64,000 nucleotides of DNA from an uncultured Pseudomonadales bacterium (lineage in GTDB: Bacteria > Patescibacteriota > Microgenomatia > UBA1400 > PJMF01), in the NCBI GenBank assembly GCA_964457085.1, contig CAYWDM010000001.1, forward strand, positions 111,690 to 175,689, read 5' to 3'. This document shows, one piece after another, positions 41,319 through 57,546 of the stretch. A program made the position numbers and the translations under genes. The notes under the pieces were generated by a model. That model was not told the origin of the DNA and did no database searches. It saw nothing but the letters and a program-made list of their open reading frames with translations. The first letter of the stretch is position 1. The number at the start of each line of letters is the position of its first letter.

Positions 41319-41370
41319 AAGACTATTCTAGCAGAAGTGCAAAATGGGAGTTAGTATCCTCATGAAAATG

Positions 41371-41443
41371 AGCCAGAGGTGGGAATCGAACCCACGACCT
41401 ACGGTTTACGATACCGCCGCTCTACCAACTGAGCTACACTGGC
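41371..41443 (-). tRNA. tRNA-Thr (anticodon CGU)
   Basis: Folded by hand: acceptor GCCAGTG/CTCTGGC (one T-T mismatch), D-arm GCTC/GAGC with AGTTGGTA loop, anticodon arm GCGGT/ACCGT with loop ATCGTAA, T-arm GTGGG/CCCAC with loop TTCGATT. The overlapping plus-strand ORF 41344-41694 is spurious. Confidence 0.85.
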
Positions 41444-41532
41444 TAACTGGTGCATTGTACAAAAGATATCAGGGGAGAGCAAATAAATTACTGGCAAATT
41501 TAAAAAAATTAAGCCAAATAAGGATTATTCAA

Positions 41533-41556
41533 GGGGTGCGACTTACGCCGCACCCC
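41533..41556 (-). terminator. Rho-independent terminator
   Basis: GGGGTGCG / CGCACCCC stem with an 8-nt loop, followed on the minus strand by a U-rich tract. Confidence 0.5.
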
Positions 41557-41565
41557 AAGAAAAAA

Positions 41566-41760
41566 CTACTCTTTCTTTTTCTCCTTCGGTTGAACAACCC
41601 CACGGGTTGCCTTATCAACACCAACGAGTTGCGCGATGCCCCAAAGAGCAAGCAATACCTCGTCGATGAAACCAGGAACAAAAAGAGCGACTAAACCAAG
41701 CACAAGGAAAAGCAAAATGCGCTTGGCTGGGGACAGCGAACCTATCCCTTTGAAATTCAT
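41566..41760 (-). CDS. Small membrane protein (64 aa)
   Basis: Strong AGGAGG RBS 8 nt upstream of the ATG. Two hydrophobic helices. Confidence 0.5.
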   Translation of the reverse strand: MNFKGIGSLSPAKRILLFLVLGLVALFVPGFIDEVLLALWGIAQLVGVDKATRGVVQPKEKKKE

Positions 41761-41786
41761 AGAACTGCCTCCTTACTGAATGATGA

Positions 41787-43004
41787 TTAGTAGATCGGAG
41801 TGCTGTTACGCTCCGCATAACTAATTAGCCGCTTGTGAGCAGCCAATGAGCCATCTTTCTCGCCCGTTACAGCCCAGATCTCACCATTGACTAGTGCGAT
41901 CTCAGCTTGCTGAGGGTTTGTGGTAAAGCGCTCAAACCGCCGAGTACGGGTTTGCGATACATCTACCTTTGGATAGGGAGCCATCGGTAAACCGGTGAGC
42001 ACCCACTTCGAGGTGGTACCGCTGTCCATGGTTTCATCCGTGAAAGCGGCCTCGGACGATTTCTTGTCCTTAGCAGCCAACAAAACAGACGAAACTACAG
42101 TCAACGAACGGTCTCCAAAATCCCCAGCCACTCCCAATAGTTCTGAAACATACTGGATAGAGCTGGTATAGATACCGCCTGAGATCATGCCACCTTCAGC
42201 CGCCACAACCGTGGATCGACTGTGTGCCATAACAGCACGGGTAACAGAATCGCAAATAAACACCACATCATATCCTGCTTGTGTAAGTCGACGAGCTCGC
42301 TTCACAGCAAACTCGAAAACCTGCACCTGGATATGCAATGGATCCTCACGAGGAGAAGTGAAGAATTCACCACGCTCAGGACCAACCAGATCCCAAACTT
42401 TTTTGTAATCGGTGAAGTCTTCAGATCTTTCTCCTAGATGAAGAACAATGGGATACAACTTCGCATCTTCTTTCGTAAGACGAAGCAGTGCTTCCCATAA
42501 TGCCAGCAGAACGCTGGTTTTACCACTGCCGCCTGGGGCGGCTAGGTAAATGGACTGGCCTTTGCCAATCGGGGCCAACAAAGTCAGCACCCGCAAAGAC
42601 AAATTGCCAAACTTTTCCACTCTCAAAGGACGAGTGGGATAGTTGGCCCCGAGAAATATACGCTTGTCGCGCAAATCCTCAGCCTCGCCAACGATCCGTG
42701 GCCACGCAGAGACCATTGCTGGATCTGTGCAGCCATTAACCGAGATGATGCTGTCTGGACTCTCGGAACTGAGTTCAACCAAATCGCCTTCTTCCAGATT
42801 CCACCTTAACACCACCGATGGACTAACCACCAGTGAATATTGAGGAGCATTGGGAGATTGCGCTTGGTCAATCAGATGCTGACGCCGGTGAGTTCTGAGT
42901 TTCCCCAGATTTCCCGGTATTAACGTTGTGAGTGGCGGCACGCGTTCCCCGTAAACGAGGACTGCGTTTGGATCCACTCCTTGCTGAAGCACCCATGCTT
43001 TCAA
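41787..43004 (-). CDS. Divergent Rho-family RecA-like ATPase (transcription termination factor Rho homolog)
   Basis: [31 protein letters not shown] versus Rho [40 protein letters not shown] versus [38 protein letters not shown] versus HVQVAEMVIEKAKRLVE..VIILLDSITRL. TTG start with an AGGAGGTG RBS. Higher GC than the surrounding genes. Confidence 0.65.
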   Translation of the reverse strand: [405 protein letters not shown]

Positions 43005-43219
43005 GGTTCACCTCCTGAGTGACTGAATGGGGTTTGACTCACCTCGCCTCTTTTTAAGGCATAGGGGAAAACTTAGTCCTATCAATTAATTTCAATAAGA
43101 CAAACTTTTCCCCTGTGCCAAATAATCCTTATTTGGCTGTTAAAGAACAAACACAACAAGAGAGCTTGGCCAACGGGCAAGGGGTGGAAAACCACCCCAA
43201 GCCCGAAGACACAAACTAA

Positions 43220-44401
43220 CTAACTTTCACGGAATGCGGGCCAGGGGTTTTCCATGGCTGGTGCATCGGTAGATGCAGGGATGACGGATTGACCATTTCT
43301 TCGATCCCAAATTCCAGGATCATCAGCTGTCAACAAGTCAATTACTTTGCCATCCTTTCCAACTTTTGCCCTTAGGGCCTCAAGATCAGCCACTTTGAAA
43401 GTGCCTGTTCTTAGGTTTCCTTGGAGCCCAACCTTGATTTTCTCTGCTTCCACAGCCAGAGCTCTAATGATTTGATTGGTCGACATGCACCAATCAACGC
43501 CACCAATGATGTTTGTGGCAAACTGCATGGCACTGGGAATGATTAGATACCCTGTGCCACTCTTCGAGTATAACAAGCGATTCCAGAGGTCCTGGAGGGC
43601 ACCAGTTCTACTCGGTCCCATGTTTTTGGTTAATCTGTCGATATCAGTTCCAGCCAATAACTCTTTGCAAGGAATTAGATCACCAAATGAAGCATCTGGA
43701 TCTTTCCCAAACAAAGTTGGCCTGACATTTATCTCCACCATAAACATGTTTGTGATTACCAACCGAGAATGCCGAGATTCCCAAGCTTTCACCCAATAGA
43801 TCAAGGGTAAAATGAAAAATGGCACTACGAAACCAACTAGAAAGTACCAGTAGTTCATTTCTGGCACCACTTCGCTGATCAACCCGGTGGTAACAATGAC
43901 ATAGAATCTATAGAGAAACTCTACAATGACGACCAATAGTCCGAAGACAAAGCCGGCACCAACAGCAGCCAGACTGGATGAGAACGTTACCCAACCAGCT
44001 GTTGCCATCAAATTCTTGTCAATGACAAGTTGGAGCTTTTCTCCTTCCTGCATAACCCAAGGCATAGAGCTTGGGAGCCACAGAAAATCAAAAACTTTGG
44101 AGATTAGAGGCTCTACTACCCGAACTATCCAGGCAATCAGAAACCAGAAAATCACCAATCCTACCACCGTCCAACCAATAGCTAGTAGGATCCTTACGAT
44201 GTTTTCCACACGTACCTCCTTTGTGGGTGGTACTCCTCTTACTTCCATACTCGCGAGAGTTGGGGAGCAGATGAAGCACCATGAATGAAGTGGATTGACA
44301 CCGGTATCCTTCAAGAGGACACCGTCGGCCGTTCTGCTCCCTTTTTCGGAGCTAGGGCTTTGTCTCATTGTTTTTTTGTCACTGCATGTCATGGTTGACA
44401 T
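43220..44401 (-). CDS. Polytopic membrane protein (hypothetical)
   Basis: Four TM helices then a ~200 aa soluble domain. The first 40 codons lie inside the 446-bp repeat and are identical to those of the ORF at 46192-48261. The true start may be an internal Met (MEVRGVPP). Confidence 0.45.
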   Translation of the reverse strand: MSTMTCSDKKTMRQSPSSEKGSRTADGVLLKDTGVNPLHSWCFICSPTLASMEVRGVPPTKEVRVENIVRILLAIGWTVVGLVIFWFLIAWIVRVVEPLISKVFDFLWLPSSMPWVMQEGEKLQLVIDKNLMATAGWVTFSSSLAAVGAGFVFGLLVVIVEFLYRFYVIVTTGLISEVVPEMNYWYFLVGFVVPFFILPLIYWVKAWESRHSRLVITNMFMVEINVRPTLFGKDPDASFGDLIPCKELLAGTDIDRLTKNMGPSRTGALQDLWNRLLYSKSGTGYLIIPSAMQFATNIIGGVDWCMSTNQIIRALAVEAEKIKVGLQGNLRTGTFKVADLEALRAKVGKDGKVIDLLTADDPGIWDRRNGQSVIPASTDAPAMENPWPAFRES

Positions 44402-44727
44402 GTCTTGAGAAACAGTGACACAGAGCCCTAGCTATATATCTGAAAAAGAAGAGTGGAGAAACAAACCAAAAAAGAAGTTATCAGTTTTTTTATTTTAATA
44501 AAAACATCTTTGTTTTTATATATCTCTCTTGTTGTGTTGTTAAAGATCTACCAAGCAAAACAGTTGAGAACTATACGCAAACAGAGACGCAGTGTGATTT
44601 GTGTTATACAGATCACGGTCTCTGTTGCACCTCTCAACCGATTATATTTACTTGGTCACTGTTTCGACTTCGAGAAGTCTCATCAGGTCTAGGCAAAACC
44701 TAGACGACAGTGCACAACAAGAGAGTG
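44282..44727. repeat. 446-bp direct repeat, copy 1 (100% identical to 48142-48587)
   Basis: Verified block by block. Contains a hammerhead ribozyme, an AT-rich putative promoter, nested hairpins around a start codon, and 40 shared codons. Confidence 0.9.
44657..44712 (-). ncRNA. Type III hammerhead ribozyme (copy 1)
   Basis: Minus-strand RNA 5'-CACUGUC|GUCUAGG-UUUUG-CCUAGAC-CUGAUGA-GACUUCUCGAAGUC-GAAA-CAGUG-3'. Closed stem I (7 bp), complete CUGAUGA core, stem II closed by G10.1-C11.1, GAAA, and a 6-bp stem III with a GUC cleavage triplet. Confidence 0.8.
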
Positions 44728-44767
44728 TTGCTTGGACGGAGGGAGAAGAGCACAATGCCCAACTCCC

Positions 44768-46189
44768 TCACGGTCCAATCAACGCCGGTGCCGCACTAGT
44801 CGGTACCGTTTCAAAGATGAGTAAATCACCAGATTCTGACCACTTTGCAGTGATCTCATGGTCAGTAGTATTCTCAATCACTAAATCCGCACTCTGACAA
44901 TTTATGCCCACCGTGAAGATAGGATAAAATGGATAGAAAGTGTGAGAAGGAGCTTTGGCTACTACAAGACCTGGTACTTGGCTTGCCCAGTTTTTGATGA
45001 CTGAAGCATTGGCACAAATACCACCAGCACTGATGTTTGCCGCGAATTTATATTGATCCCAGCCGGTCTCGTTCGTCTGTTGACAGAACGACCAAGTGCC
45101 ATTGGCTGGAACTACTATTGTCTGGTTTAAAGTTGACCAAAGCGCTACGTTATAGGCTTGGCCATCTGCAACCGGGACATCGCGGGTGAGATTGATTGTC
45201 AATTGCCCTGAACCAGGTACGAGTGTACCTCCAGGTAGACCAGCAGCTGCATTACCAGCTTCGGCCTGCCAATTCTCTGGCAAGAGACCCATCTCTTGGA
45301 AAAACTGAATGCTTGCTGACTGGAAAAATGCATATTCTCCAGGAGAACCAAATGATAGGCTGGTCTGGACATCAAAACCGCCCAAACCTCGACCGGCATA
45401 AATATCAGCCGTCGCTACCAACTGACGTCGGTAGGGCTCATCGTGGTTCCACCCATAAAGAACCTTCACTCTTTCCTCTACAGTCATGTCAGAGCGATAA
45501 CCCATGCGATTTACTTCATAGGCCATTGCAAAAAACATGACTTTCTGGTCCCAGAAGTCACAAGATTTGACAACCGGGTCAGTTGAGGTTTGAAGCGCCA
45601 CCTTACAGATTCGCCAAGCAGTGGTGGGAATAAACCCACCAGCACCAAGCTCACCTGCAGACGCGTGCCCCAACCAATCTGAATAATCTGACTTGATGTA
45701 TTGAGCTGCCACTGGGTTATGAGCCCGAATGTCCTGCTCTTTCCATAAAGCCAATAACTCCAGGCCAGCTTCCTTTTCTTTAGCAGCTATGAGGTTTGTG
45801 TTCCCCATTGCTGATGCAAGACCAGGCGAGCTACCCAGATTTGTTCCGCCTGCACTTTCGCCGCTATGGAGAGACTGCAAAATGGCGAGGTCAAGCTGAC
45901 CTTTCCACTGAGCGTTCACCCATGTGATTGCGGCTTGAGCGTCAGCCACAGCTGTCGGATCAAGTCCGATCGCCTTTACCGTCACCTCGTCGGTGGCAGA
46001 GAGCGAGTAGGAGAGTTCCGACCGAACCCCGAGGATCTGAGCCATCATGCGCTCATAACCCTCGGGGTTGGTATCATGTTGGTACAACAGGTAGACGAAT
46101 CCACCCATCGGAACAACACAGCTGACGACTGTGGCCACCACGATCGCAAGCAAGATGAGTTTTTTTGATAAGTTACGATGTCGCCTCAC
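44768..46189 (-). CDS. Membrane-anchored cell-wall-active protein with a lytic-transglycosylase-like region and a C-terminal VanW-like domain
   Basis: N-terminal TM helix. SGESAGG...AGELGAGGFIPTTAW resembles the SLT ES / AGAxGLMQ motifs. The C-terminus GGICANASVIKNWASQVPGLVV...YPFYP..G.DL.IEN resembles the VanW domain. Confidence 0.45.
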   Translation of the reverse strand: MRRHRNLSKKLILLAIVVATVVSCVVPMGGFVYLLYQHDTNPEGYERMMAQILGVRSELSYSLSATDEVTVKAIGLDPTAVADAQAAITWVNAQWKGQLDLAILQSLHSGESAGGTNLGSSPGLASAMGNTNLIAAKEKEAGLELLALWKEQDIRAHNPVAAQYIKSDYSDWLGHASAGELGAGGFIPTTAWRICKVALQTSTDPVVKSCDFWDQKVMFFAMAYEVNRMGYRSDMTVEERVKVLYGWNHDEPYRRQLVATADIYAGRGLGGFDVQTSLSFGSPGEYAFFQSASIQFFQEMGLLPENWQAEAGNAAAGLPGGTLVPGSGQLTINLTRDVPVADGQAYNVALWSTLNQTIVVPANGTWSFCQQTNETGWDQYKFAANISAGGICANASVIKNWASQVPGLVVAKAPSHTFYPFYPIFTVGINCQSADLVIENTTDHEITAKWSESGDLLIFETVPTSAAPALIGP

Positions 46190-46191
46190 GG

Positions 46192-48261
46192 CTAATCGCT
46201 CCTACCTAAACTCTCTACCAACACAGCTGGCAGGTGAACCTGCAAATGTGCGAGTAATTCTTGCTCGGATTCGGCTTTCCCAAATCGTCTAGGATCGTAC
46301 ACGTCAGCCATTTGATGGCCATCGTTTCCCAAACGAACGAGAATACTGCAAGACTCTACGAAACCGGCTGGGAAGTCTTTCACCAGCTCTTCCACCGAGT
46401 GAACGGTGAAATAGATATGTTGCCGATCCTTACGGACCGTATCTACAGCTTCGCGCATCTTGAGACGCGCACGTGCACCCAGTTGAGGACCGGTTTGGCC
46501 CAAAAATGAGTCTGCTGCTGATGGAAAACTCACCATGTCATCGAAAACGACATGGATTGTCCTACCACTCTCAACAGTCCACAAAGCCCACGCCTGAGTT
46601 AGTGCCTCGTAAAAGGCAAGAACCCAATTGTAGTACCGTAGGCTGTTGACCTTAGGTCTAATTGCAAGTGGCAACCAGCTTTCACCAGTTGTTCTCCACT
46701 TTTCTGCCAGTTTCCTGACAAAATCTTGAGCCTTTGCCGAATCCTTACGGAACAGCTCCTGTTCAAGATCAATGGCAGTTCTGTCGCCCTCTCCCTGATT
46801 GACATCAGGAAGATCTATTTCAACGACTTGACCACCAAAGGCTTTCGACCATTTATGACTCCCCTCCTTATCAGCGCTTTTCAACTGAACAAATACAACG
46901 TCAGCTGATTGCTGCAACATATAGAATGCTGCAAGCGTTGATTTTCCCGTCCCAGATGGACCCTCGAAAATCGTTGAGGGATACCTGGAGGCGTTCAAGA
47001 AAAAGGGTTGCTCCGGTTTTGCCAATTTACCGATCATGGCATAACCGAATGAGTGAGCTGTCTTCGGGGAGACAGATTCAGCGAGTTTGGCAAGTAGCTT
47101 CTCCGGCTTTTTAAGCAGGAAAGGTTTCCAAGCAGGTGGGGGTTGGTGACCTACCATGAAGCCAAAGTGAGCCTCACGGACTGCATTCCCAGTCAACCGC
47201 TCCCAACCTGGACCAATCAAGTCAAGCCTATCTTGAAGTGAATCAAGATTTGTTTGACCATTACTCGCAACCGCACTTTCTGCTCGAATAACTAACCGAA
47301 CATAAGCACGATTTTCAACTCTTTCGAGATGAAGCAGCACGTCAACATTGAGTGCCAATAGCTCATCGAGCTGGCGCTGCAATTCTGAGAGCTGTTTTTC
47401 AGGGTCTTTTTCCAGAGTTGCTATCACCCCAGTCCAAAACCCTAGCGCCTTACTACCTAGAAGCACATCGCTCATTCGCCAGCGGATAGCCAGCGGTGCA
47501 GCAATTAACTCGGGTTGTAAGGTGCCTGTGTACGTCATCGAAGACAGGTCAGCGTTATTTCTGCCATACTGACTTCGATTAAGCGTTGCCCGGACGAAGT
47601 TTCCTGATTCATGGTACGAAACCAGGTGACCTTCCGCAAAACGGCGCTGCTTATCTAAATGACGGCGAATGTTCAACCATGGTGCCCAAAGAACCAATTC
47701 TCTACCAAAAGGTTTTGAACCGGTGGGCACAGCCCATTCACTGACAGAAGCCAGGAATTCGGCGTATGGTTGGATCGCCTGCTTGCGTAGTTGCGCCTGG
47801 CGCAACATCTCCTTAAACGTCCCAGTGTCTTTCGGCACAGCACGAAAAAGAAGAGTAAACTCAGGCAACAATCTTGTCAGCTGCGCCAGATCAGGAACAC
47901 CACGGTTAAAATACACCGCCGCATTCCATCCCTTTTGAGCCTCATGACTGTCACTAACGTACCTACGGGAAAATCCCGCAGCGCCACCATCCAATGATGC
48001 TATCTGAAGATCGATCATTTGTCTTGATTCGACCAACTGATTTCTCACTGGTACTGGCAATTGAGAACCTAACGTGGCCACAGTACCTCCTTGTGGGGGT
48101 ACCTCGTCTCGCTCCTTTTGAGGGGAACAAAACAAAGTACCTGAATGAAGTGGATTGACACCGGTATCCTTCAAGAGGACACCGTCGGCCGTTCTGCTCC
48201 CTTTTTCGGAGCTAGGGCTTTGTCTCATTGTTTTTTTGTCACTGCATGTCATGGTTGACAT
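46192..48261 (-). CDS. P-loop NTPase, VirB4/TraC(ConE)-like ATPase candidate
   Basis: Walker A IFEGPSGTGKSTLAAF in the C-terminal half. Walker B-like HVVFDDM ~130 aa later. 689 aa. The first 40 codons are shared with the 43220-44401 ORF through the repeat. The true start may be internal. Confidence 0.45.
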   Translation of the reverse strand: MSTMTCSDKKTMRQSPSSEKGSRTADGVLLKDTGVNPLHSGTLFCSPQKERDEVPPQGGTVATLGSQLPVPVRNQLVESRQMIDLQIASLDGGAAGFSRRYVSDSHEAQKGWNAAVYFNRGVPDLAQLTRLLPEFTLLFRAVPKDTGTFKEMLRQAQLRKQAIQPYAEFLASVSEWAVPTGSKPFGRELVLWAPWLNIRRHLDKQRRFAEGHLVSYHESGNFVRATLNRSQYGRNNADLSSMTYTGTLQPELIAAPLAIRWRMSDVLLGSKALGFWTGVIATLEKDPEKQLSELQRQLDELLALNVDVLLHLERVENRAYVRLVIRAESAVASNGQTNLDSLQDRLDLIGPGWERLTGNAVREAHFGFMVGHQPPPAWKPFLLKKPEKLLAKLAESVSPKTAHSFGYAMIGKLAKPEQPFFLNASRYPSTIFEGPSGTGKSTLAAFYMLQQSADVVFVQLKSADKEGSHKWSKAFGGQVVEIDLPDVNQGEGDRTAIDLEQELFRKDSAKAQDFVRKLAEKWRTTGESWLPLAIRPKVNSLRYYNWVLAFYEALTQAWALWTVESGRTIHVVFDDMVSFPSAADSFLGQTGPQLGARARLKMREAVDTVRKDRQHIYFTVHSVEELVKDFPAGFVESCSILVRLGNDGHQMADVYDPRRFGKAESEQELLAHLQVHLPAVLVESLGRSD

Positions 48262-48587
48262 GTCTTGAGAAACAGTGACACAGAGCCCTAGCTATATATC
48301 TGAAAAAGAAGAGTGGAGAAACAAACCAAAAAAGAAGTTATCAGTTTTTTTATTTTAATAAAAACATCTTTGTTTTTATATATCTCTCTTGTTGTGTTGT
48401 TAAAGATCTACCAAGCAAAACAGTTGAGAACTATACGCAAACAGAGACGCAGTGTGATTTGTGTTATACAGATCACGGTCTCTGTTGCACCTCTCAACCG
48501 ATTATATTTACTTGGTCACTGTTTCGACTTCGAGAAGTCTCATCAGGTCTAGGCAAAACCTAGACGACAGTGCACAACAAGAGAGTG
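48142..48587. repeat. 446-bp direct repeat, copy 2
   Basis: Identical to 44282-44727 and offset by 3860 bp. Confidence 0.9.
48517..48572 (-). ncRNA. Type III hammerhead ribozyme (copy 2)
   Basis: Identical 56-nt sequence to copy 1. Confidence 0.8.
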
Positions 48588-48625
48588 AGAGAAGGTGGGC
48601 ATCTTACGACGCCCACCTCTTCACA
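48588..48625 (-). terminator. Terminator-like hairpin downstream of the 99-aa gene
   Basis: GGTGGGC..(10 nt)..GCCCACC followed on the minus strand by uucucuc. Confidence 0.4.
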
Positions 48626-48629
48626 TTTA

Positions 48630-48929
48630 CTACTGCTTTAATCTCCACTCTTCGTCTTCATGTCCTTTACCGCTTTCTTCACACTGACGCATATAGCGTC
48701 GATTTTTAATCCACCCAGGAATTCGAGTGAGCATGAAAATTACGGCAATAACTCCAAACACTTGGTACGTATATTTGGAATAATTAAACATGAGAACAAT
48801 CACGGCGCCACCAACCATAGCGATCACTTTCGTAATCAATGGCAATCCGTGCGAGCGATCGAACCACTCGTAGCGAGATCTTTTTAGCCAACGCTTGATT
48901 CCTCGAATCACTGGAGATGACGTGTTCAT
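48630..48929 (-). CDS. Small two-TM membrane protein (VirB3-like by size, topology and position; hypothetical)
   Basis: 99 aa with two hydrophobic helices. Lies immediately upstream (in operon order) of the VirB4-like ATPase. Confidence 0.4.
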   Translation of the reverse strand: MNTSSPVIRGIKRWLKRSRYEWFDRSHGLPLITKVIAMVGGAVIVLMFNYSKYTYQVFGVIAVIFMLTRIPGWIKNRRYMRQCEESGKGHEDEEWRLKQ

Positions 48930-50338
48930 GGTAGATCATCTCCATCGCTAATCACGATCGTATCCTTACCGGTAAACGGGTCGGATGCTGACTGCGAAGC
49001 GGAATCATCGAAATTGCTGGACAAATCACTTGGCCCTGTAGGCAGCACGTCGTCATCTGACACCAAAGTGTCTGAGACTATTGTTGCTGTAGTTGTGCCA
49101 ACTTGAGTGATTGTCCCTTCGATTTGCGTTTGGGTAGTGGGCAACTCATCCAGCTTGTCCACATCGTCACTGACGACAATCGTAGCCGCATCAACCGAAG
49201 CTGAACGACTCTTCTCATCACCGGTTTCGATTACGGGCAGCTCATCTTCTAAATCATGAGAGTCTGCCCCGTAAACCACTTGCTTAGGTGAATCCGAAAA
49301 TTCATCGTTTGCTGTTTCCTTAACCTGACCATCGACGACTCCGCTAGTTGCAGAGAGAAGACCGTCATTGGGAGGATAAGCATAGATGACATCAGAGTCG
49401 CCTTGTGGACCGTTGCCACCACTGCCACCACCGTCCACACCATCATCCGAAGAATTAGGCGTGAAAGGAAAAGGCACGAATGTTGCTGTGCTAGAAGCAT
49501 CAGCTCCAGTACCTTCGGCGGGCAGTTCGTCTTGAGCTGATTCTTGCTCGTCAGCGCTTTCACTTGGCATATAAACAATCGCCAAGATCGGCGGCAAAAA
49601 GTAAGTAACCAACCCCAGAATTAGCATTGTCACCAGATAAATCAGGTTAAACGCAACAAAGCTGCTCACGATCGCATTATCCGGACGGATGCTGCCAAGC
49701 AATTCTGTCACATTTTTGACCACTTCTGGTGCCAGTATCCAACCAGCAATACTCGCCGCAGCAACCCCAAGAGGCCGCCACGACCAAGTCATTATCGCGA
49801 CCGCAACACAGATGATGAGCACCACTGAGGTGACAATCTGCATCGCAGCATGAAATAACGGCCAGTTGAGAATGAACGACAACGCCCATATGAAACTGAG
49901 TGGGTTGGTGTCACCGACTGGAATCGGAAACGTCCAACCCAACTGAGTAGCAATCCAGCTGAGCGTGAGCGCCTCAGGCCAAGTAGCTCGGCCGAGTTGC
50001 TCAATGGCTGGTAAGATATAAGGGAGTATTCCTACCCCAAACATCAAACCAAACATTTTACGGACTTTACCCCAATTTTGTTTCTTCAAGCCAGAAATAA
50101 TGCCGAGTAAAGCAATCGGCACAAGGCACTGAAGAACAGAGAGCAACCCTTTGGCTGCAGATTGGGATAGATTGATGAACGCCATGCTTTTTAAGGGCAC
50201 CGCGTCATCAATTGCCCGATCGATTGCGCCACATCCCGAAAGAAATAGCATCGAAAGGGTTAGAATGATCGCGACCCTGAGTTTCATGGTCGCACTTCTA
50301 CTTGATACTGGAGACGAGGTTTGTGATGAGCAAACCAA
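48926..50338 (-). CDS. Polytopic membrane lipoprotein with a long acidic disordered C-terminal tail (VirB6/ConG-like candidate)
   Basis: Lipobox LSGC after a signal peptide. At least six TM helices. ~170 aa D/E/S/T-rich C-terminus. Likely start at the internal ATG near 50287 (MKLRVAIIL). Confidence 0.45.
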   Translation of the reverse strand: MVCSSQTSSPVSSRSATMKLRVAIILTLSMLFLSGCGAIDRAIDDAVPLKSMAFINLSQSAAKGLLSVLQCLVPIALLGIISGLKKQNWGKVRKMFGLMFGVGILPYILPAIEQLGRATWPEALTLSWIATQLGWTFPIPVGDTNPLSFIWALSFILNWPLFHAAMQIVTSVVLIICVAVAIMTWSWRPLGVAAASIAGWILAPEVVKNVTELLGSIRPDNAIVSSFVAFNLIYLVTMLILGLVTYFLPPILAIVYMPSESADEQESAQDELPAEGTGADASSTATFVPFPFTPNSSDDGVDGGGSGGNGPQGDSDVIYAYPPNDGLLSATSGVVDGQVKETANDEFSDSPKQVVYGADSHDLEDELPVIETGDEKSRSASVDAATIVVSDDVDKLDELPTTQTQIEGTITQVGTTTATIVSDTLVSDDDVLPTGPSDLSSNFDDSASQSASDPFTGKDTIVISDGDDLP

Positions 50339-50546
50339 TCCCCTGTGTCAGTGGACCGCTGGTGATGATATCCTTGGCTGCAAAAGCTGAAAGCGCCAGG
50401 ACAAACCACATCGCGACGACGACAGAAGTGTCGCCCCAAGAGGTCATCTTCTTGACCTTATTCACAGACTCGGGGAACACAGTGACCACACCAAACACTA
50501 TCATGGCGCTGATCAGAGCCGTACCGAAGTTGATTAAAGCTTGCAT
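50298..50546 (-). CDS. Small membrane protein (82 aa)
   Basis: AGGAG RBS 6 nt upstream of the ATG. Two TM helices. Preceded by conserved structured leader A. Confidence 0.45.
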   Translation of the reverse strand: MQALINFGTALISAMIVFGVVTVFPESVNKVKKMTSWGDTSVVVAMWFVLALSAFAAKDIITSGPLTQGIGLLITNLVSSIK

Positions 50547-50571
50547 GTTTACTCCTTATTTCTGAATGGTT

Positions 50572-50664
50572 GAATGGATTGACGATTGGAACAACGACGG
50601 GCGTCTTGCGACGCCGTGAGGATGCCCCATCTAGGGGCGGACAATTTGTGCGATATGCACCTCC
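50572..50664 (-). promoter_or_regulatory. Conserved structured 5' leader, copy A
   Basis: Minus-sense GGAGGUGCAUAUCGCAC..CCCCUAGAUGGGG..GGCGUCGCAAGACGCC (GNRA-like loop), then RBS and ATG. ~85% identical to copy B. Confidence 0.45.
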
Positions 50665-50950
50665 GTTAAGGATGGGATGTAGTGCAACGAACAGCTTTGC
50701 CCTTTTTTTGGGCTTGGGCCTAATAAACACTCATAAAAAAATAAGCGCTCATTGAGCCCAAGCCACGACAACCAACAGCTATATAAGAAGTTTAGTAAAT
50801 TCTCTTGTTGTGCTGTTAATGAGCAAGGCGACAAGTAACCTATTACAATAACAAGTTCTTATCGAAATACCCAGGCCAAATATGGCCAGATAACAACACA
50901 ATTATGCGGTTATCCAGCAATACTTTAAAAAGTAGGGGAATGAGTATTCA

Positions 50951-50984
50951 TTCAATTATGAGAGCGAAGTTTCCTTCGCCCTCA
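50951..50984 (-). terminator. Rho-independent terminator of the 153-aa gene
   Basis: 15-bp near-perfect stem ATTATGAGAGCGAAG / CTTCGCCCTCATAAT with a T-rich tail on the minus strand. Confidence 0.5.
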
Positions 50985-51006
50985 TAATTTCTGAATGATT
51001 GGTGGC

Positions 51007-51468
51007 TTATGTCGTGGTGTCTACGGACAGAGTCGACGGAGCGACGGGATAGGCAAACATCGGCGCCATCTCCGCATCACTCATGCCGCATGCTTTTGCC
51101 ATAATGCGTGCAGAATTAGCAGACGCTTTATTGATTTGGCTTCGAGTGTTAATGCGGAGAACTTCCACATCGCCAATCATGCCAACCAAAAAACCATCCT
51201 TTAACTCTACACGGACAAAACACATGCCCTTTGGGGCAAGCAGGCGAGTGTACAACTTACGTGCGAAAATCTCGCGCGAAACAGCTGTGCTCAACTTCAA
51301 GCTCATCTTGGGCGACTCGTAATCCCAGATGACTTCCCCACCGGGGTCGTCAGTGCTGAAACCACAAACAAACAACAACTGCGCTTCATTAGTGCAGATG
51401 ATCGCAAAACCGTCTTCTGGCATGCGAATCGAACGTGACCCTTTCGAGGCCGGGGCTTGTTTAGCCAT
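51007..51468 (-). CDS. Hypothetical protein (153 aa)
   Basis: GAAGGAG RBS then ATG at 51468 (MAKQAPASKG). Preceded by leader copy B. Confidence 0.5.
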   Translation of the reverse strand: MAKQAPASKGSRSIRMPEDGFAIICTNEAQLLFVCGFSTDDPGGEVIWDYESPKMSLKLSTAVSREIFARKLYTRLLAPKGMCFVRVELKDGFLVGMIGDVEVLRINTRSQINKASANSARIMAKACGMSDAEMAPMFAYPVAPSTLSVDTTT

Positions 51469-51493
51469 GACTGATACTCCTTCTAACTTGAAT

Positions 51494-51584
51494 GAATGGA
51501 TTGACAACGAGCAACGACGGGCGCCTTATGACGCCGTGAGGGTACCCCATCTAGGGGCGGACAATTTGTGCGATATGCACCTCC
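51494..51584 (-). promoter_or_regulatory. Conserved structured 5' leader, copy B
   Basis: Same three-hairpin arrangement as copy A, with a compensatory U-A to U-G change in the third stem. Confidence 0.45.
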
Positions 51585-52082
51585 AAAAAAAACAGAATGT
51601 AATACGGGCATGCTCTTTTTTTGAGCTGGGGCCAAAGCTACTAACAGGTATGACTATTAACAGCTTTGACCTCAGCTCTTATACTCATTCCCCTGTTAAG
51701 GTGCGAAACGACAAAAAAATTGCAACGCAAATGCTGCAAATATTTATATCGTTTTGCTATCAAATCTAAACAAAAAGTATCCTATATATATCAGTAGAAA
51801 AACATTACAGGACGTGTTATACATCTTCAATATGTAAAAGTCAATATACTTTGATAGAGTTCAACTCGATAAAAAATACAAAAAAACCTTCTCCCTCTTG
51901 CGAGAGAGCAGGCGATGCCACAAATGGAACGATATTTTGGCAGTCTGTTGAGCGGCATTCTGACAAACGCATTCACTTCAGTTCATCTCGAATTCTCGAT
52001 CAACCTTGTCAACAAATAACAAACAACTATGAGTTTTTACTCCAGACACAATTGCATTAGAAAAACTAATCCATACCTGAAT

Positions 52083-52445
52083 TTAATACATTTTTCCACC
52101 AACCACAGCAAAAACCTTATCAGGCCTAATCAATACACAGTCACCCTCGCCATCTGGGACTCCAAGCGTCAAACACTCAGAAATAAAAGGACCAATCTGA
52201 CGTGGTGGAAAATTTACCACTCCTAGAACTAGGGTATTCAATAATTGATCTGGCGTATAGTGTTTTACCAATTGAGCACTAGATTTCTTGGTTCCAATTT
52301 CAGCACCAAAATCTATTAACAGTTTGTATGCTGGCTTCCGAGCTTCAGGAAATTCTTTAACCTCTACAATCTTTCCAACTCGAACGTCAATTTTTTGGAA
52401 ATCTGAATATTCAATTTGCGAGAATGGTAGGGTAGAAACAGACAT
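52083..52445 (-). CDS. csaA: tRNA-binding protein CsaA/Trbp111 (EMAP-fold)
   Basis: KIDVRVGKIVEVKEFPEARKPAYKLLIDFG, the tRNA-binding OB fold. Confidence 0.8.
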   Translation of the reverse strand: MSVSTLPFSQIEYSDFQKIDVRVGKIVEVKEFPEARKPAYKLLIDFGAEIGTKKSSAQLVKHYTPDQLLNTLVLGVVNFPPRQIGPFISECLTLGVPDGEGDCVLIRPDKVFAVVGGKMY

Positions 52446-52607
52446 AACTATTCCTTAATTAACAAAAATAAAATCTATCTACTCATATCTTACCAGATTA
52501 AAAAAACTAACTACAAGTCTGGTGAAAAGTAGTGAATAGATTAATATAGTATTGTTAAAGCCGTAGTTATTCTAACAAACGAGCACTATGTATCGATGTA
52601 TACTAAT

Positions 52608-52776
52608 ACTACCTTCGGGGTAGGTTGATCTTGCGTAACCGCGAGAAAATACCAATCGGTGGTACACTCCACGAGTCTTGCTTGCGAGACATGATCTGGT
52701 GAAACTCCAGAAGCGACCGTATAGTCGGGTATAAAGAAGGTACTCAAAAAACCACGCTATTTTGCGTGGTGTTTTG
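52608..52776 (+). promoter_or_regulatory. FMN riboswitch (RFN element) with intrinsic terminator
   Basis: P1 UACCUUC/GAAGGUA. 5' UUCGGGGUAGGUUGA..ACCG..CGGUGGUA and 3' UGGUGAAACUCCAGAAGCGACCGUAUAGUCGGGUAUAAAGAAGG, closely matching RFN UGGUGAAAUUCCAAAGCCGACAGUGAAAGUCUGGAUGGGAGAAGG. Terminator CCACGC/GCGTGG + UUUU at 52752-52776. CCCCGAAG at 52782-89 is complementary to the P1 5' strand, and GGGGCAU pairs across the SD. Confidence 0.75.
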
Positions 52777-52812
52777 AGATGCCCCGAAGTTATATAAATT
52801 ACTGTAGGGGCA

Positions 52813-53379
52813 TTGATGAAATTTTTAAATAGTTTCTCTAATCGGGATATCGCACTTTCCGCTGCATTAGCAGCTGTTTCAGCTGTTCTCCAATTCGTTC
52901 ATATTGGCTACCAGTCGCCACAGTGGGGAATGTGGATTGACGTGGTTGCAGTTTCCTGGGTGATTGCGTATTTCTTATTGGGAACTCGAGCTTCGCTACT
53001 GGTCACACTCACCGGCTCACTCATCATCACACTTTTTGCACCCGACACCTGGCTTGGTGCCTCGATGAAATTAGTGGCAACACTCCCGATACTTTTCTCA
53101 TTATTTATCTGGAAAAAAATCAAAAATACTGGCTACTCGAACCCTAGAAATCTCGCAGTCCCTGTCATAGCAGGCATGATTATTCGCTGCGCAGTAGTAC
53201 TTCCTGCAAATTACTACTACGCAATTCCCATCTGGACTGGACTAACCCCAGCTCAAGCTATAGCAGCCATCCCCTGGATGGCCATCGCCGGATTTAATAT
53301 TGTCCAAAGTATTTTAGATGTCGCACTTGCTTGGATAGTGGTCTATCGATTCAAGGTAATTAGATTTAAACAAGGCTAA
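52813..53379 (+). CDS. ribU: ECF-transporter S component, riboflavin-type (RibU-like)
   Basis: 188 aa, 5-6 TM helices, directly downstream of the FMN riboswitch, followed by ecfA and ecfT. Confidence 0.6.
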   Translation: MMKFLNSFSNRDIALSAALAAVSAVLQFVHIGYQSPQWGMWIDVVAVSWVIAYFLLGTRASLLVTLTGSLIITLFAPDTWLGASMKLVATLPILFSLFIWKKIKNTGYSNPRNLAVPVIAGMIIRCAVVLPANYYYAIPIWTGLTPAQAIAAIPWMAIAGFNIVQSILDVALAWIVVYRFKVIRFKQG

Positions 53380-53386
53380 GTTAGCT

Positions 53387-54133: not shown

Positions 54134-54711
54134 CACAACTCTGGTTAACTCGTCTCAAATTGTTGCTATTACTAGCCACTACCTCCACACTGATCTTAAT
54201 TAGAAATCCCAACATCAGCCTGACGATATCAGTGCTTATAACAGTAATCGTCATCTCGACTATTAAACGGCAAAATATTGCAAATAGAATTAAGCCGTTA
54301 TTGGCTATTTGCTGTCTGGCGATCGTTTCTCAACTACTGGGAAATCACTTGGCGTCTTTAACAGACAGATTACTGCTTGGTATTGCCCATGCAACAAAAC
54401 TTTTAGCACTTAGTTTATTGGTTTTCCAATTTACTCAGACCACCTCCGCCAACAGCCTGGTGCGAGTTTTTTCTTTTCTGCCTCCTAAAATTGTACTGCT
54501 ACTAACAATCAGTTTTTCCCTAGTTCCTGTGATGATACGAGAAATTGATGCCATTCAAATTGCTCAAAAATCAAAAGGGCTCCAGTTCCAAGGGCTCCAG
54601 GCTTGGCGCAGTTTTATACCAGTAATTGTGCCACTACTCAACAGAACCTTAACTCGAGCTCAGCAGATCGCCATTGTGCTTGAAATTAGAGGATTTGAGA
54701 ATAAAAAATGA
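54130..54711 (+). CDS. ecfT: ECF transporter transmembrane T component (EcfT/CbiQ family)
   Basis: Polytopic 193 aa protein overlapping the ecfA stop, with the characteristic Arg-containing coupling region near the C-terminus. Confidence 0.65.
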   Translation: MTQLWLTRLKLLLLLATTSTLILIRNPNISLTISVLITVIVISTIKRQNIANRIKPLLAICCLAIVSQLLGNHLASLTDRLLLGIAHATKLLALSLLVFQFTQTTSANSLVRVFSFLPPKIVLLLTISFSLVPVMIREIDAIQIAQKSKGLQFQGLQAWRSFIPVIVPLLNRTLTRAQQIAIVLEIRGFENKK

Positions 54712-57504: not shown

Positions 57505-57546
57505 GCTGATCCTGTCAAACAAATTATTTTTTGCTACACTACAAAG

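What the first reader, a model, noticed from the sequence alone, without database searches (positions are those of the whole stretch)
41450..51600. Higher-GC ~10 kb island upstream of tRNA-Thr with a minimal Gram-positive-type T4SS-like module and no recombinase
The island runs at about 47-55% GC against about 30-45% in the flanks. All nine genes are on the minus strand. In operon order they are: small membrane protein, VirB6/ConG-like polytopic lipoprotein, VirB3-like 2-TM protein, VirB4/ConE-like Walker ATPase, and a cell-wall hydrolase with SLT-like and VanW-like regions (CwlT/VirB1 analogue). This order mirrors the ConG-ConD-ConE-CwlT core of Firmicute conjugation systems (established for ICEBs1/pCW3; applied here by motif-level inference). 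No integrase, relaxase, coupling protein or att-site duplication of the tRNA 3' end is visible, and the island lies on the 5' side of the tRNA. It may be a domesticated T4SS, as widely reported in Saccharibacteria, rather than an active ICE.
Basis: partly seen in the sequence, partly recalled or inferred. Interest (0 to 1): 0.7.

Follow-up and report, generated by a model that had tools for sequence, protein, structure and literature searches.

The report
Divergent T4SS-like island with hammerhead ribozymes
A 10-kb foreign gene block in an ultra-small (Patescibacteria) bacterium encodes a very divergent type IV secretion-like machine that always travels with a Rho-like motor protein and is punctuated by self-cleaving hammerhead ribozymes, a combination not described for such systems.

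Summary
The island is real. It spans about 41,520-51,870, carries nine minus-strand genes, and has 47% GC against 42% elsewhere. Its tetranucleotide usage lies about 9 SD from host segments. It sits between tRNA-Thr and tRNA-Gly, which are 16-170 nt apart in the eight related Microgenomatia-type Patescibacteria loci scanned for tRNAs. The host is therefore not a Saccharibacterium.

No sequence HMM recognises VirB4, VirB6 or SLT; VanW scores only below threshold. However, a confident AlphaFold model of the 629-aa ATPase (pLDDT 92) matches full-length TrwK/VirB4 best (Foldseek E 1.7e-15). The gene order (2-TM protein, polytopic lipoprotein, small TM protein, ATPase, wall hydrolase) recurs in distant relatives, whose hydrolase is Peptidase_M23. 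No integrase, relaxase, coupling protein or att repeat was found.

- A Rho-family ATPase (41787-43004) is a constant member of the cassette in every lineage examined.
- Two 446-nt, 100% identical non-coding repeats flank the ATPase-hydrolase pair.
- Each repeat carries a type III hammerhead ribozyme, supported by compensatory changes across lineages.

Verdict: a new, rare variant of a T4SS-like system, and its function is inferred rather than shown.

The parts
51816..51844 (-). Putative sigma-70-type promoter of the cassette (TTGACT, 17 nt, TATAAC). It follows the CsaA terminator-like hairpin at 51891-51908.
   Evidence: Read from the sequence. A similar TTGACT-17-TATACT stands at the equivalent place in L001. 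This is an inference and was not tested.
51470..51815 (-). Leader of gene 1. It contains a hairpin, an A-loop hairpin (GCUCAAAAAAAGAGC, 51626) and one copy of the ~93-nt repeat (51493-51584) with the motif GGAGGTGCATATCG.
   Evidence: The repeat is 89% identical to the copy upstream of gene 2. The same arrangement occurs in L001 and L005.
51007..51468 (-). Gene 1: a soluble protein of about 153 aa with unknown function (the ORF is listed as 166 aa from TTG 51507).
   Evidence: Orthologues in L001/L005 are 42% identical. There are no Pfam, NCBIfam, PHROG, PADLOC or PDB hits.
50547..51006 (-). Spacer between genes 1 and 2. It holds an orphan reverse motif CACAACAAGA (50812), a hairpin (50697-50778), an A-loop hairpin (50713) and the second ~93-nt repeat copy (50571-50664).
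50298..50546 (-). Gene 2: an 82-aa protein with two hydrophobic helices. Its topology resembles a VirB2/pilin, but homology is not established.
   Evidence: Hydropathy. Orthologues occupy the same position in L001, L005, L092, L094 and L097. No Pfam hit in any orthologue.
48926..50290 (-). Gene 3: a 454-aa polytopic membrane lipoprotein (lipobox LSGC, at least 4 TM helices, acidic low-complexity C-terminus). It is a positional and topological analogue of VirB6/PrgH.
   Evidence: The lipobox is conserved in L001 (LTGC), L092 (LSGC) and L094 (LAGC). No VirB6/TrbL HMM hit in six orthologues.
48630..48929 (-). Gene 4: a 99-aa basic N-terminus followed by 1-2 TM helices, immediately upstream of the ATPase. 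It is a positional analogue of VirB3/PrgI.
   Evidence: The only hit is phrog_1024 (unknown function, E 4e-5). No Pfam VirB3/PrgI hit in seven orthologues.
48142..48587 (-). Repeat copy A (446 nt, non-coding, 100% identical to copy B). It contains inverted-repeat arms (48585-48573 and 48396-48384), a type III hammerhead, an AT-rich stretch and a long leader hairpin (48206-48298).
48516..48573 (-). Type III hammerhead ribozyme, copy A. The predicted cleavage is after C48566 (GUC^G).
   Evidence: Identical to copy B. See copy B for the scores.
46192..48081 (-). Gene 5: a 629-aa VirB4-fold ATPase (the ORF is listed as 689 aa from ATG 48261; the likely start is GTG 48081). Walker A is GPSGTGKS and Walker B is HVVFDD.
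44768..46189 (-). Gene 6: a 473-aa membrane-anchored extracytoplasmic protein, the putative peptidoglycan hydrolase (VirB1/PrgK-type role). It has an ES...GAGGFIPTTAW lytic-transglycosylase-like motif and a sub-threshold VanW-like C-terminus.
   Evidence: VanW scores E 0.002 and 18.1 bits, below the 27-bit cut-off. No PDB sequence hit. Orthologous positions encode Peptidase_M23, plus a weak SLT_2 in L096.
44282..44727 (-). Repeat copy B (446 nt, 100% identical to copy A). Its inverted-repeat arms are 44725-44713 (CTCTCTTGTTGTG) and 44536-44524 (CACAACAAGAGAG). It also holds a hammerhead, an AT-rich stretch and a leader hairpin (44346-44438).
44656..44713 (-). Type III hammerhead ribozyme, copy B. 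The predicted cleavage is after C44706.
   Evidence: Rfam RF00008 scores 30.7 bits, E 3.6e-5 in a 161-nt search (gathering score 48.5). The MFE fold reproduces the three-way junction. Across the window, L001 and L005, 100% of cells are paired and 4 pairs carry compensatory changes.
43220..44206 (-). Gene 7: a 328-aa protein with 3-4 N-terminal TM helices and a soluble C-terminal domain (the ORF is listed as 393 aa). Its function is unknown.
   Evidence: Orthologues of 331-429 aa occupy the same position in every cassette. No Pfam or PDB hit.
43005..43219 (-). Spacer before the Rho-like gene. It holds a terminator-like hairpin, an orphan forward motif CTCTCTTGTTGTG (about 43164-43152) directly followed by TTCTTTAACA, and a hairpin (43053-43124).
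41787..43004 (-). Gene 8: a 405-aa Rho-family RecA-type ATPase paralogue. It keeps Walker A/B, Q- and R-loop-like segments and an Arg finger. It has no detectable Rho_N or Rho_RNA_bind domain.
   Evidence: Pfam ATP-synt_ab 9.9e-14. NCBIfam Rho scores 98 bits against a 315-bit cut-off. PDB Rho E 8.6e-24. It belongs to a distinct small clade and is conserved in cassettes L001, L002, L005, L092, L094, L096 and L097.
41566..41760 (-). Gene 9: a 64-aa single-TM protein, followed by a terminator-like hairpin (about 41533-41556).
   Evidence: No homologue was detected in the other cassettes by tblastn.
41370..41443 (-). tRNA-Thr(CGT), the left flank of the insertion. Its partner tRNA-Gly(CCC) is at 54865-54936.
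   Evidence: In the relatives scanned that carry both genes, the two tRNAs are 16-170 nt apart.

Best explanation
This is a horizontally acquired cassette of about 10.4 kb and nine genes. It is inserted between tRNA-Gly and tRNA-Thr of a Microgenomatia-type Patescibacterium.

What it encodes:
- A minimal, extremely divergent, monoderm-style T4SS-like envelope translocon.
- Its parts are a 2-TM pilin-like protein, a polytopic lipoprotein (VirB6 analogue), a small membrane protein (VirB3 analogue), a VirB4-fold ATPase, a membrane-anchored wall hydrolase and a 3-4-TM protein.
- There is no VirD4-type coupling protein or relaxase. Instead the system is invariably partnered with a Rho-family ATPase. 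By analogy with canonical Rho hexamers, I infer this is the second motor or substrate receptor, probably acting on single-stranded nucleic acid.

How it is expressed (inferred):
- A long transcript starts at a promoter upstream of gene 1.
- Two identical type III hammerhead ribozymes lie just after genes 4 and 6. They cut read-through RNA into separate [g2-g4], [g5-g6] and [g7-g9] units.
- Four of the units (g1, g2, g5 and g7) begin with a conserved structured leader.

Shown: the insertion, the composition shift, the VirB4 fold, conservation of the cassette, Rho-family membership, and the hammerhead core with covariation.
Inferred: that the machine secretes or imports anything, the roles of g2, g3, g4 and g7, the role of the Rho-like protein, and ribozyme activity.
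For: Insertion and foreign composition:
- Among the 80 related species representatives, the loci that reach far enough carry Big-domain gene ... LemA-M48-GatA; in the eight scanned for tRNAs, Thr, Gly and Asp fill the gap (seven have tRNA-Gly), with Thr and Gly 16-170 nt apart. None of the 80 carries island genes at this locus.
- GC and tetranucleotide usage are shifted.

VirB4 fold:
-.
- A profile of 63 family members hits EccC, FtsK, VirB4 and HerA around Walker A.

Cassette conserved down to 25-30% ATPase identity:
- The same order is kept, with a wall hydrolase (Peptidase_M23, plus weak SLT_2 in one) after the ATPase. This holds in L089-L091, L092, L093, L094, L096 and L097.
- From my recollection of pCF10, this order matches its PrgH-PrgI-PrgJ-PrgK core.

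Rho-like partner:
- It is present in every cassette whose contig reaches that position.
- It is recovered reciprocally when the search starts from the Rho-like protein.

Hammerheads:
-.
- Homologous copies occur in L001, L005, L007 and L091.
- Multiple hammerheads flanking gene blocks of mobile or prophage DNA are a known arrangement, interpreted as processing of polycistronic RNA (PMC3088659).

Missing conjugation genes:
- T4SS without a relaxase is the rule in Patescibacteria (PMC12102498).
Against: - No sequence HMM (Pfam, NCBIfam, PHROGs) recognises any T4SS component.
- TM-scores to TrwK are only 0.43-0.49.
- The VirB2, VirB3, VirB6 and VirB8 roles rest on size, topology and position alone.
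- The window's own hydrolase has no significant domain hit.
- The hammerheads score below Rfam's gathering threshold (30.7 and 34.3 bits against 48.5), and cleavage is untested.
- Some cassettes (L089, L094, L096, L097) have the spacer motifs but no hammerhead.
- A Rho paralogue could equally be a transcription regulator of the cassette.
Confidence: 0.6

Rival explanations
1. The machine is related to VirB4 or HerA but is not a secretion system in the usual sense. One option is a DNA- or nucleic-acid-import apparatus like the archaeal Ced/Ted system, which has small TM proteins, a polytopic protein and a VirB4-like ATPase. In that case the Rho-like hexamer would pull single strands in. Another option is a surface-filament assembly machine.
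For: - The gene set (2-TM protein, polytopic protein, small TM protein, VirB4-fold ATPase) has the same minimal composition I recall for Ced. This rests on my own knowledge and was not tested.
- There is no relaxase or T4CP.
- Patescibacteria depend on hosts for nucleotides (PMC12102498, introduction).
- The Rho family are single-strand translocases (for family membership).
Against: - No comparison with CedA or CedB could be run.
- The wall hydrolase and the lipoprotein fit monoderm conjugation-type systems equally well.
- The direction of transport cannot be read from the sequence.
Confidence: 0.2
2. The island is an active integrative conjugative or mobilisable element that moves itself between chromosomes.
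For: - It has foreign composition and was inserted in a tRNA cluster.
- Related cassettes lie at different loci: YchF/rpsF in L001 and L005, and aminoacyl-tRNA synthetase or ribosomal-protein neighbourhoods in L092, L094 and L096.
Against: - No integrase, relaxase, coupling protein, replication gene, att duplication or tRNA-fragment repeat was found.
- The insertion lies at the 5' side of the tRNA.
- All nine genes are accounted for by the conserved cassette.
Confidence: 0.08
3. The island is a prophage-like or virus-like element, for example a membrane-containing or non-tailed virus. Its ATPase would package the genome and its hydrolase would act as a lysin. Clustered hammerheads are typical of prophages.
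For: - Clustered hammerheads are mostly reported in prophage contexts (PMC3088659).
- All genes share one orientation.
- The best viral structural match is Bacillus phage G gp155, at E 1.3e-14.
- g4 hits phrog_1024.
Against: - PHROGs gives no capsid, terminase, portal, integrase or replication hit.
- Viral packaging ATPases match only the P-loop core, at about 1e-5.
- VirB4 matches the full length.
- No relative was found in 2.9 million viral contigs.
Confidence: 0.07

Closest known systems
Chromosomal relaxase-less T4SS of Patescibacteria (MPF-FATA-like; Quinonero-Coronel et al. 2025, PMC12102498)
   Same: - The host phylum is the same.
- It is chromosomal and lacks a relaxase.
- A VirB4-class ATPase is accompanied by small membrane proteins and nearby wall hydrolases, including Peptidase_M23.
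- VirB6 is hard to recognise in Microgenomatia.
   Different: - Here the ATPase is invisible to the Pfam VirB4/T4SS family models, and the family is rare: 66 representatives among 1.84 billion, and 4 homologues among 5.8 billion by word search.
- The cassette is an accessory insertion rather than a conserved locus near the replication origin.
- It always contains a Rho-family ATPase and structured spacers with hammerheads. The paper mentions neither.
Enterococcus pCF10 PrgH-PrgI-PrgJ-PrgK-PrgL, and the ICEBs1 ConG/ConD/ConE/CwlT core of Gram-positive conjugation systems
   Same: - The order is polytopic protein, small TM protein, VirB4 ATPase, then a membrane-anchored multi-domain wall hydrolase (M23 or SLT types).
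- The envelope is monoderm.
   Different: - There is no detectable sequence homology, no VirB8-like NTF2 protein, and no coupling protein, relaxase or oriT.
- A Rho-like ATPase and a 3-4-TM protein follow the hydrolase.
- The pCF10 and ICEBs1 gene orders come from my own knowledge and were not checked with tools.
Clustered hammerhead ribozymes flanking genes in prophages and mobile DNA (Perreault et al. 2011, PMC3088659)
   Same: - Several hammerheads stand in intergenic positions of a co-oriented gene block of foreign origin.
- The canonical core is present.
- The proposed role is processing of polycistronic RNA.
   Different: - Here the ribozymes are type III and sit inside 426-469-nt repeats that are 100% identical within each genome.
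- Each ribozyme is enclosed by a conserved 13-nt inverted repeat.
- They flank the VirB4-hydrolase pair of a secretion-like cassette in Patescibacteria.
Transcription termination factor Rho
   Same: - It shares the RecA-type ATPase core, with Walker A/B, Q- and R-loop-like segments and an Arg finger.
- Part of the OB-fold is retained (VSPS..R.NL..GD).
- PDB Rho scores E 8.6e-24.
   Different: - It scores 98 bits against the equivalog cut-off of 315.
- It has no Rho_N or Rho_RNA_bind Pfam hit, unlike most of the canonical Rho proteins recovered.
- The aromatic GFGF RNA-binding motif is replaced by GNLGKL, as read from the sequence.
- It is encoded only inside this cassette family.

Membership tests
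Type IV secretion system (MPF, monoderm/FATA type) | VirB4-family signature ATPase recognised by sequence profiles | tested here: not met
   Pfam, NCBIfam and PHROGs give only a sub-threshold P-loop match. Among 63 family members there was one T4SS-DNA_transf hit and one FtsK hit at about 3e-3. CONJscan/TXSScan profiles were not available.
Type IV secretion system (MPF, monoderm/FATA type) | VirB4 two-domain fold (N-terminal domain plus RecA-like C-terminal domain) | tested here: met
Type IV secretion system (MPF, monoderm/FATA type) | VirB6-like polytopic and VirB3-like small membrane proteins next to virB4 | tested here: inconclusive
   Topology, size and position fit, and they are conserved in at least 6 cassettes. 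No HMM hit was found in any orthologue.
Type IV secretion system (MPF, monoderm/FATA type) | Dedicated peptidoglycan hydrolase (VirB1/PrgK/CwlT class) | tested here: inconclusive
   The window protein has only a sub-threshold VanW match (18.1 bits, below 27) and a motif-level SLT resemblance. The orthologous position carries Peptidase_M23 in L089-L094 and L097, and SLT_2 (weak) plus M23 in L096.
Type IV secretion system (MPF, monoderm/FATA type) | Coupling protein (VirD4/TcpA), and a relaxase for conjugative systems | tested here: not met
   None of the nine proteins hits these families. A Rho-family ATPase is present instead.
Hammerhead ribozyme, type III (Rfam RF00008) | Catalytic core CUGANGA...GAAA with an NUH cleavage triplet | tested here: met
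   CUGAUGA / GAAA / GUC is present at 44656-44713 and 48516-48573. L001 and L005 have CUGAAGA, a change at the variable position 7.
Hammerhead ribozyme, type III (Rfam RF00008) | Three helices around the core, stems I and II capped by loops, supported by covariation | tested here: met
   The MFE folds give the junction. All 18 pairs are 100% paired, and 4 carry compensatory changes, including two in stem III and one in stem II. Slid controls reach only 27-46% paired. Only about 3 independent lineages are aligned.
Hammerhead ribozyme, type III (Rfam RF00008) | Score at or above Rfam's gathering threshold (48.5 bits) | tested here: not met
   The window scores 30.7 bits and L091 scores 34.3 bits. 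Both were missed by the whole-window and 11.6-kb scans.
Hammerhead ribozyme, type III (Rfam RF00008) | Self-cleavage | not testable with these tools
   This needs in-vitro transcription or mapping of 5'-OH and 2',3'-cyclic-phosphate RNA ends.
Transcription termination factor Rho | Rho ATPase core motifs | tested here: met
   PDB Rho scores E 8.6e-24, with Walker A/B, ERxE, SGG and the Arg finger aligned.
Transcription termination factor Rho | Equivalog-level score and the Rho N-terminal and RNA-binding domains | tested here: not met
   It scores 98 bits against a cut-off of 315. Only PF00006 is found, whereas most canonical Rho proteins in the same search carry PF07497 and often PF07498.
Integrative conjugative element or tRNA-targeting genomic island | Integrase or recombinase, with att direct repeats duplicating the tRNA 3' end | tested here: not met
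   No recombinase family hit. No shared repeat longer than 10 nt at the borders and no tRNA-fragment copy. The island lies at the 5' side of tRNA-Thr.
Prophage | Capsid, portal, terminase or other virion genes | tested here: not met
   PHROGs gives no structural-gene hit. No relative was found in IMG/VR contigs.

The most novel reading that the evidence does not exclude
The most novel reading is that the cassette is an RNA-centred mobile or secretion system.
- The two identical hammerhead-bearing repeats would behave like the LTR-type repeats of retrozymes.
- Self-cleavage at 48566 and 44706 would release a 3,860-nt RNA carrying VirB4 and the hydrolase, with 5'-OH and 2',3'-cyclic-phosphate ends.
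- This RNA could be circularised, or handled by the Rho-family RNA translocase as a substrate of the T4SS-like channel.
- This would explain three things: the perfect homogenisation of the repeats in three lineages, the absence of a relaxase and integrase, and the constant Rho partner.
Probability: 0.05. Interest if true: 0.92.

Novelty: new variant of a known kind. Interest (0 to 1): 0.64.

Why it matters
T4SS-like genes are reported to be essential for the epibiotic life of cultivated Patescibacteria (as summarised in PMC12102498), but what they transport is unknown.

- This cassette defines a second, very divergent lineage of such machines that standard HMM screens would miss.
- It points to a concrete, testable partner. 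A Rho-family hexameric motor replaces the coupling protein, which hints at a single-stranded nucleic-acid substrate.
- It places hammerhead ribozymes inside a Patescibacteria secretion-type gene cluster. No paper in the searched library mentions hammerheads together with Patescibacteria. This offers a compact natural example of ribozyme-based operon processing with strong concerted evolution of the ribozyme modules.

Tried and rejected
- Sequence searches on the nine proteins (Pfam, NCBIfam, PHROGs, PADLOC) gave nothing beyond ATP-synt_ab/Rho for g8 and sub-threshold hits.
- PDB sequence searches of g1, g5, g6 and g7 gave no significant hit.
- tblastn of the ATPase against plasmids gave no match.
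- Scans of genome, viral and metagenome contig collections with the ATPase alignment found no relative.
- The first AlphaFold run, with a 4-sequence alignment, was unusable (pLDDT 45). It was replaced by a run with 63 sequences.
- The afdb50 fold library was unavailable.
- Rfam scans of the whole window and of 11.6 kb missed the hammerheads. No other Rfam family was found in the spacers; the microRNA-like hits only reflect hairpins.
- A by-eye hammerhead in L092 (about 9790-9855) was not confirmed by Rfam, so I treat it only as a candidate.
- I looked for att repeats and tRNA fragments at the borders and found none.
- I considered a HerA-type anti-phage defence system. I rejected it because there is no PADLOC hit and the membrane, lipoprotein and hydrolase context does not fit.
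- I considered that the 40 identical N-terminal codons of the 689-aa and 393-aa ORFs mark a shared protein domain. I rejected this because they lie in the non-coding repeat and orthologues start downstream.
- The consensus promoter scan found no more sites than in shuffled sequence, so internal promoters remain unproven.

Full report
**Observation.** Nine ORFs on the minus strand lie between tRNA-Thr(CGT) at 41370-41443 and the CsaA-like gene at 52083-52445.
In 1-kb windows the island averages 47.2% GC (43.3-50.7%). The rest averages 41.6% (34.6-44.7%), Mann-Whitney p = 4e-7.
- GC3 is 45-49% in eight of the nine island genes (66% in the 82-aa gene), against 27-43% in flanking genes.
- The tetranucleotide distance to the rest of the window is 0.0206. 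Same-size host segments give 0.009 +/- 0.0013.
- From the sequence I place the borders at about 41,520 and about 51,870. The left border follows a terminator-like hairpin after the last gene. The right border follows CsaA's terminator-like hairpin and includes a TTGACT-17-TATAAC promoter at 51844-51816.

**Host and insertion.**
- The flanks are core chromosome: FtsZ, FtsA, MurA, PBP, FtsW, IleRS, GatA and GatB.
- GatA's best matches among 185,579 species representatives are Patescibacteria of the Microgenomates/'Pacebacteria' group, at up to 73% identity. The host is therefore not a Saccharibacterium.
- In those relatives, loci that reach far enough carry a Big-domain gene upstream of LemA-M48-GatA-GatB. 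In the eight scanned for tRNAs, tRNA-Thr, tRNA-Gly (seven of eight) and tRNA-Asp fill the gap, with Thr and Gly only 16-170 nt apart.
- In the window they are 13.4 kb apart. The gap holds the island plus a CsaA gene and an FMN-riboswitch/ECF-transporter unit of host-like composition.
- None of the 80 loci carries island genes. The block is therefore a derived insertion, that is, accessory DNA.
- No att-like repeat or tRNA-fragment duplication marks the borders. No island protein hits an integrase, relaxase or coupling-protein family.

**What the proteins are.** Sequence profiles are almost silent.
- The 689-aa ORF shows only a sub-threshold P-loop match.
- The 473-aa ORF has a sub-threshold VanW hit (E 0.002, 18.1 bits, below the 27-bit cut-off).
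- There is no VirB4, VirB6, VirB3 or SLT hit.
ORF 41787-43004 is a Rho-family ATPase: Pfam ATP-synt_ab 9.9e-14, NCBIfam Rho 98 bits against a 315-bit cut-off, and PDB Rho E 8.6e-24. Walker A/B, the ERxE segment, the SGG loop and the arginine finger are all aligned.

**The ATPase family.** The large ATPase belongs to a very rare family.
- It has 4 homologues among 5.8 billion clustered proteins, and 66 representatives among 1.84 billion by exhaustive profile search.
- A profile of 63 members touches EccC, FtsK, VirB4 and HerA only around Walker A.
- With that alignment AlphaFold gave a confident model (pLDDT 92, pTM 0.90). A 4-sequence run had failed.
- Foldseek against the PDB ranks TrwK/VirB4 of the R388 T4SS in the first 12 places (E 1.7e-15 to 3e-11, about 800 aligned columns, TM 0.43-0.49). 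HerA follows at 6e-8 and FtsK at 1e-5.
- Viral packaging ATPases match only the core, at about 1e-5. An uncharacterised Bacillus phage G protein matches at 1.3e-14.
- I conclude that this is a VirB4-architecture ATPase of the HerA/FtsK/VirB4 superfamily.

**The cassette is a conserved unit.**
- Contigs carrying homologues have the same order, down to 25-30% ATPase identity. The order is: soluble protein of about 150-220 aa; 81-90-aa 2-TM protein; 450-640-aa polytopic lipoprotein with a conserved lipobox; about 100-aa small TM protein; ATPase; 289-478-aa N-terminally anchored hydrolase; 330-430-aa multi-TM protein; 396-448-aa Rho-like ATPase.
- In the remote cassettes the hydrolase is a Peptidase_M23 protein. 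In L096 it also has a weak SLT_2 hit. This backs the wall-hydrolase role for the window's 473-aa protein, whose GAGGFIPTTAW motif resembles lytic transglycosylases.
- Starting instead from the Rho-like protein recovers a small clade: 11 proteins at 33-100% identity, ten of which carry only PF00006 (one has no precomputed Pfam hit). A gap separates it from canonical Rho proteins, most of which carry PF07497 and often PF07498.
- Both contexts of that clade that I looked up again contain the ATPase-hydrolase cassette.
- The cassettes sit at different chromosomal loci: YchF/rpsF, aminoacyl-tRNA synthetases and ribosomal proteins.
- The order polytopic / small TM / VirB4 / hydrolase is that of Gram-positive T4SS cores. 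I recall this from pCF10 PrgH-I-J-K and from ICEBs1.
- Relaxase-less chromosomal T4SS are known in Patescibacteria (PMC12102498). That paper mentions no Rho-like partner and no ribozymes.
- The VirB2, VirB3 and VirB6 assignments remain positional and topological. No orthologue hits the corresponding Pfam families.

- The 689-aa and 393-aa ORFs share 40 identical N-terminal residues because both run into a non-coding repeat. Positions 44282-44727 and 48142-48587 are 446 nt long and 100% identical. Orthologue alignments place the true starts downstream, at GTG 48081 and GTG 44206.
- Each repeat begins with a textbook type III hammerhead on the gene strand: CACUGUC^GUCUAGG-uuuug-CCUAGAC-CUGAUGA-G-ACUU-cucg-AAGU-C-GAAA-CAGUG.
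- Rfam's whole-window scans missed it. A short-range scan gives RF00008 at 30.7 bits, E 3.6e-5, below the 48.5-bit gathering score.
- Homologous copies stand at the same two positions in L001 and L005, where the core is CUGAAGA, a change at variable position 7. A partial copy lies at the contig end of L007. L091, a cassette only about 29% identical in the ATPase, scores RF00008 34.3 bits, E 4.6e-6.
- Across the window, L001 and L005, all 18 pairs are kept and 4 show compensatory changes. Slid controls reach 27-46% pairing. MFE folds reproduce the junction.
- Cleavage is predicted after C48566 and C44706, which are 3,860 nt apart and bracket the VirB4-hydrolase pair.
- Clustered hammerheads that flank gene blocks in prophage or mobile DNA are known, and they cleave polycistronic transcripts in vitro (PMC3088659).

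**Further spacer features.**
- Within L001 and L005 the two copies are also 100% identical (426 and 469 nt). Between genomes only the hammerhead and a hairpin base remain similar. The two modules therefore evolve in concert.
- The hammerhead plus a hairpin is enclosed by a 13-nt inverted repeat, CTCTCTTGTTGTG ... CACAACAAGAGAG. This repeat, with a compensatory C-G to T-A change read by eye in the arms, recurs in spacers of cassettes that lack a hammerhead: L089, L094 and L096, with a degenerate reverse arm in L097. In L091 it merges with stem III.
- Four leaders, before g1, g2, g5 and g7, share a long hairpin followed by a small A-loop hairpin. A rough alignment shows many compensatory pairs.
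- I read these spacers as RNA-processing and leader modules. Binding sites for a cassette regulator are an alternative.

**Mechanism and rivals.**
- Most likely (0.6), this is a rare, highly divergent T4SS-like translocon. It was acquired horizontally and is expressed as a long RNA that hammerheads cut into sub-operons. A Rho-family ATPase (by analogy with canonical Rho, a hexamer) serves as the second motor in place of VirD4 and a relaxase. The last point is an inference (about 0.3).
- Rivals are a Ced-like import or other VirB4/HerA-type envelope machine (0.2), an active ICE (0.08) and a virus-like element (0.07).
- The most novel reading is a retrozyme-like, RNA-centred unit whose ribozyme-released 3.86-kb RNA is circularised or handled by the Rho-like translocase. 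It is not excluded, but nothing supports it directly (0.05).

**Verdict.**
- The host assignment and the 'widely reported domesticated T4SS' framing are not supported.
- The Rho-family partner, the hammerheads and the perfectly homogenised repeats make this a new variant of a known kind.

Noticed in passing
window 44282-44727 and 48142-48587 (minus strand): Two 446-nt non-coding direct repeats are 100% identical and bracket the ATPase-hydrolase pair. The equivalent pairs in L001 (426 nt) and L005 (469 nt) are also 100% identical within each genome but diverged between genomes, which indicates concerted evolution.
   Followed up: yes
window 44656-44713 and 48516-48573 (minus strand); L001 9595-9652 and 13296-13353; L005 about 9565-9622 and 13303-13360; L007 1-33; L091 3731-3801 and 1-45: Type III hammerhead ribozymes lie in the spacers, with compensatory changes in all three stems. 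Rfam's default scans missed them and they score below its gathering threshold.
   Followed up: yes
window 41787-43004 (minus strand): A Rho-family ATPase paralogue without detectable Rho RNA-binding domains is a constant member of this cassette in all lineages examined. It forms its own small clade.
   Followed up: yes
window 44725-44713/44536-44524, 48585-48573/48396-48384, orphans about 43164-43152 and about 50812-50803; also L089, L094, L096, L097 spacers: A conserved 13-nt inverted repeat (C/T)T(C/T)TCTTGTTGTG ... CACAACAAGA(G/A)A(G/A) encloses a 110-200-nt domain in the spacers, even in cassettes that lack a hammerhead. It could be an RNA helix (a processing site) or paired protein-binding sites; this is undecided.
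   Followed up: partly
window 51493-51584 and 50571-50664; hairpins 44346-44438, 48206-48298, 50697-50778; A-loop hairpins at 51626 and 50713: Four gene leaders share a long hairpin, a small hairpin with an A7 loop, and (for g1 and g2) a ~93-nt repeat containing GGAGGTGCATATCG. The hairpin base (CTAGGGCTTTG...AGCCCTAG) is conserved even in L092. This may be a new cis-regulatory RNA motif.
   Followed up: partly
window 46192-48261 and 43220-44401 (minus strand): The longest ORFs (689 and 393 aa) start inside the repeat and share 40 identical N-terminal residues. The database protein P0001 (678 aa) also uses an upstream start. Orthologues indicate shorter proteins of 629 and 328 aa.
   Followed up: yes
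window 52083-54711: A CsaA-like tRNA-binding protein, and an FMN riboswitch (52607-52745, 70.5 bits) followed by an ECF-type transporter operon, also lie between tRNA-Thr and tRNA-Gly. They are absent from that locus in the relatives and have host-like GC, so they may be a separate insertion.
   Followed up: partly
L007 (both ends) and L091 (both ends): These short contigs start and end inside the hammerhead-bearing repeat. Assemblies tend to break at the repeat, so cassettes of this family are probably under-represented or fragmented in metagenome assemblies.
   Followed up: no
ATPase model m61cc5749d4a4 against BFVD: Bacillus phage G gp155 (549 aa, uncharacterised) matches the VirB4-fold ATPase at Foldseek E 1.3e-14, far better than any viral packaging ATPase.
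   Followed up: no
window 30001-32000 and 57001-58000: AT skew is unusually high (0.25-0.30 and 0.24) compared with the rest of the window.
   Followed up: no
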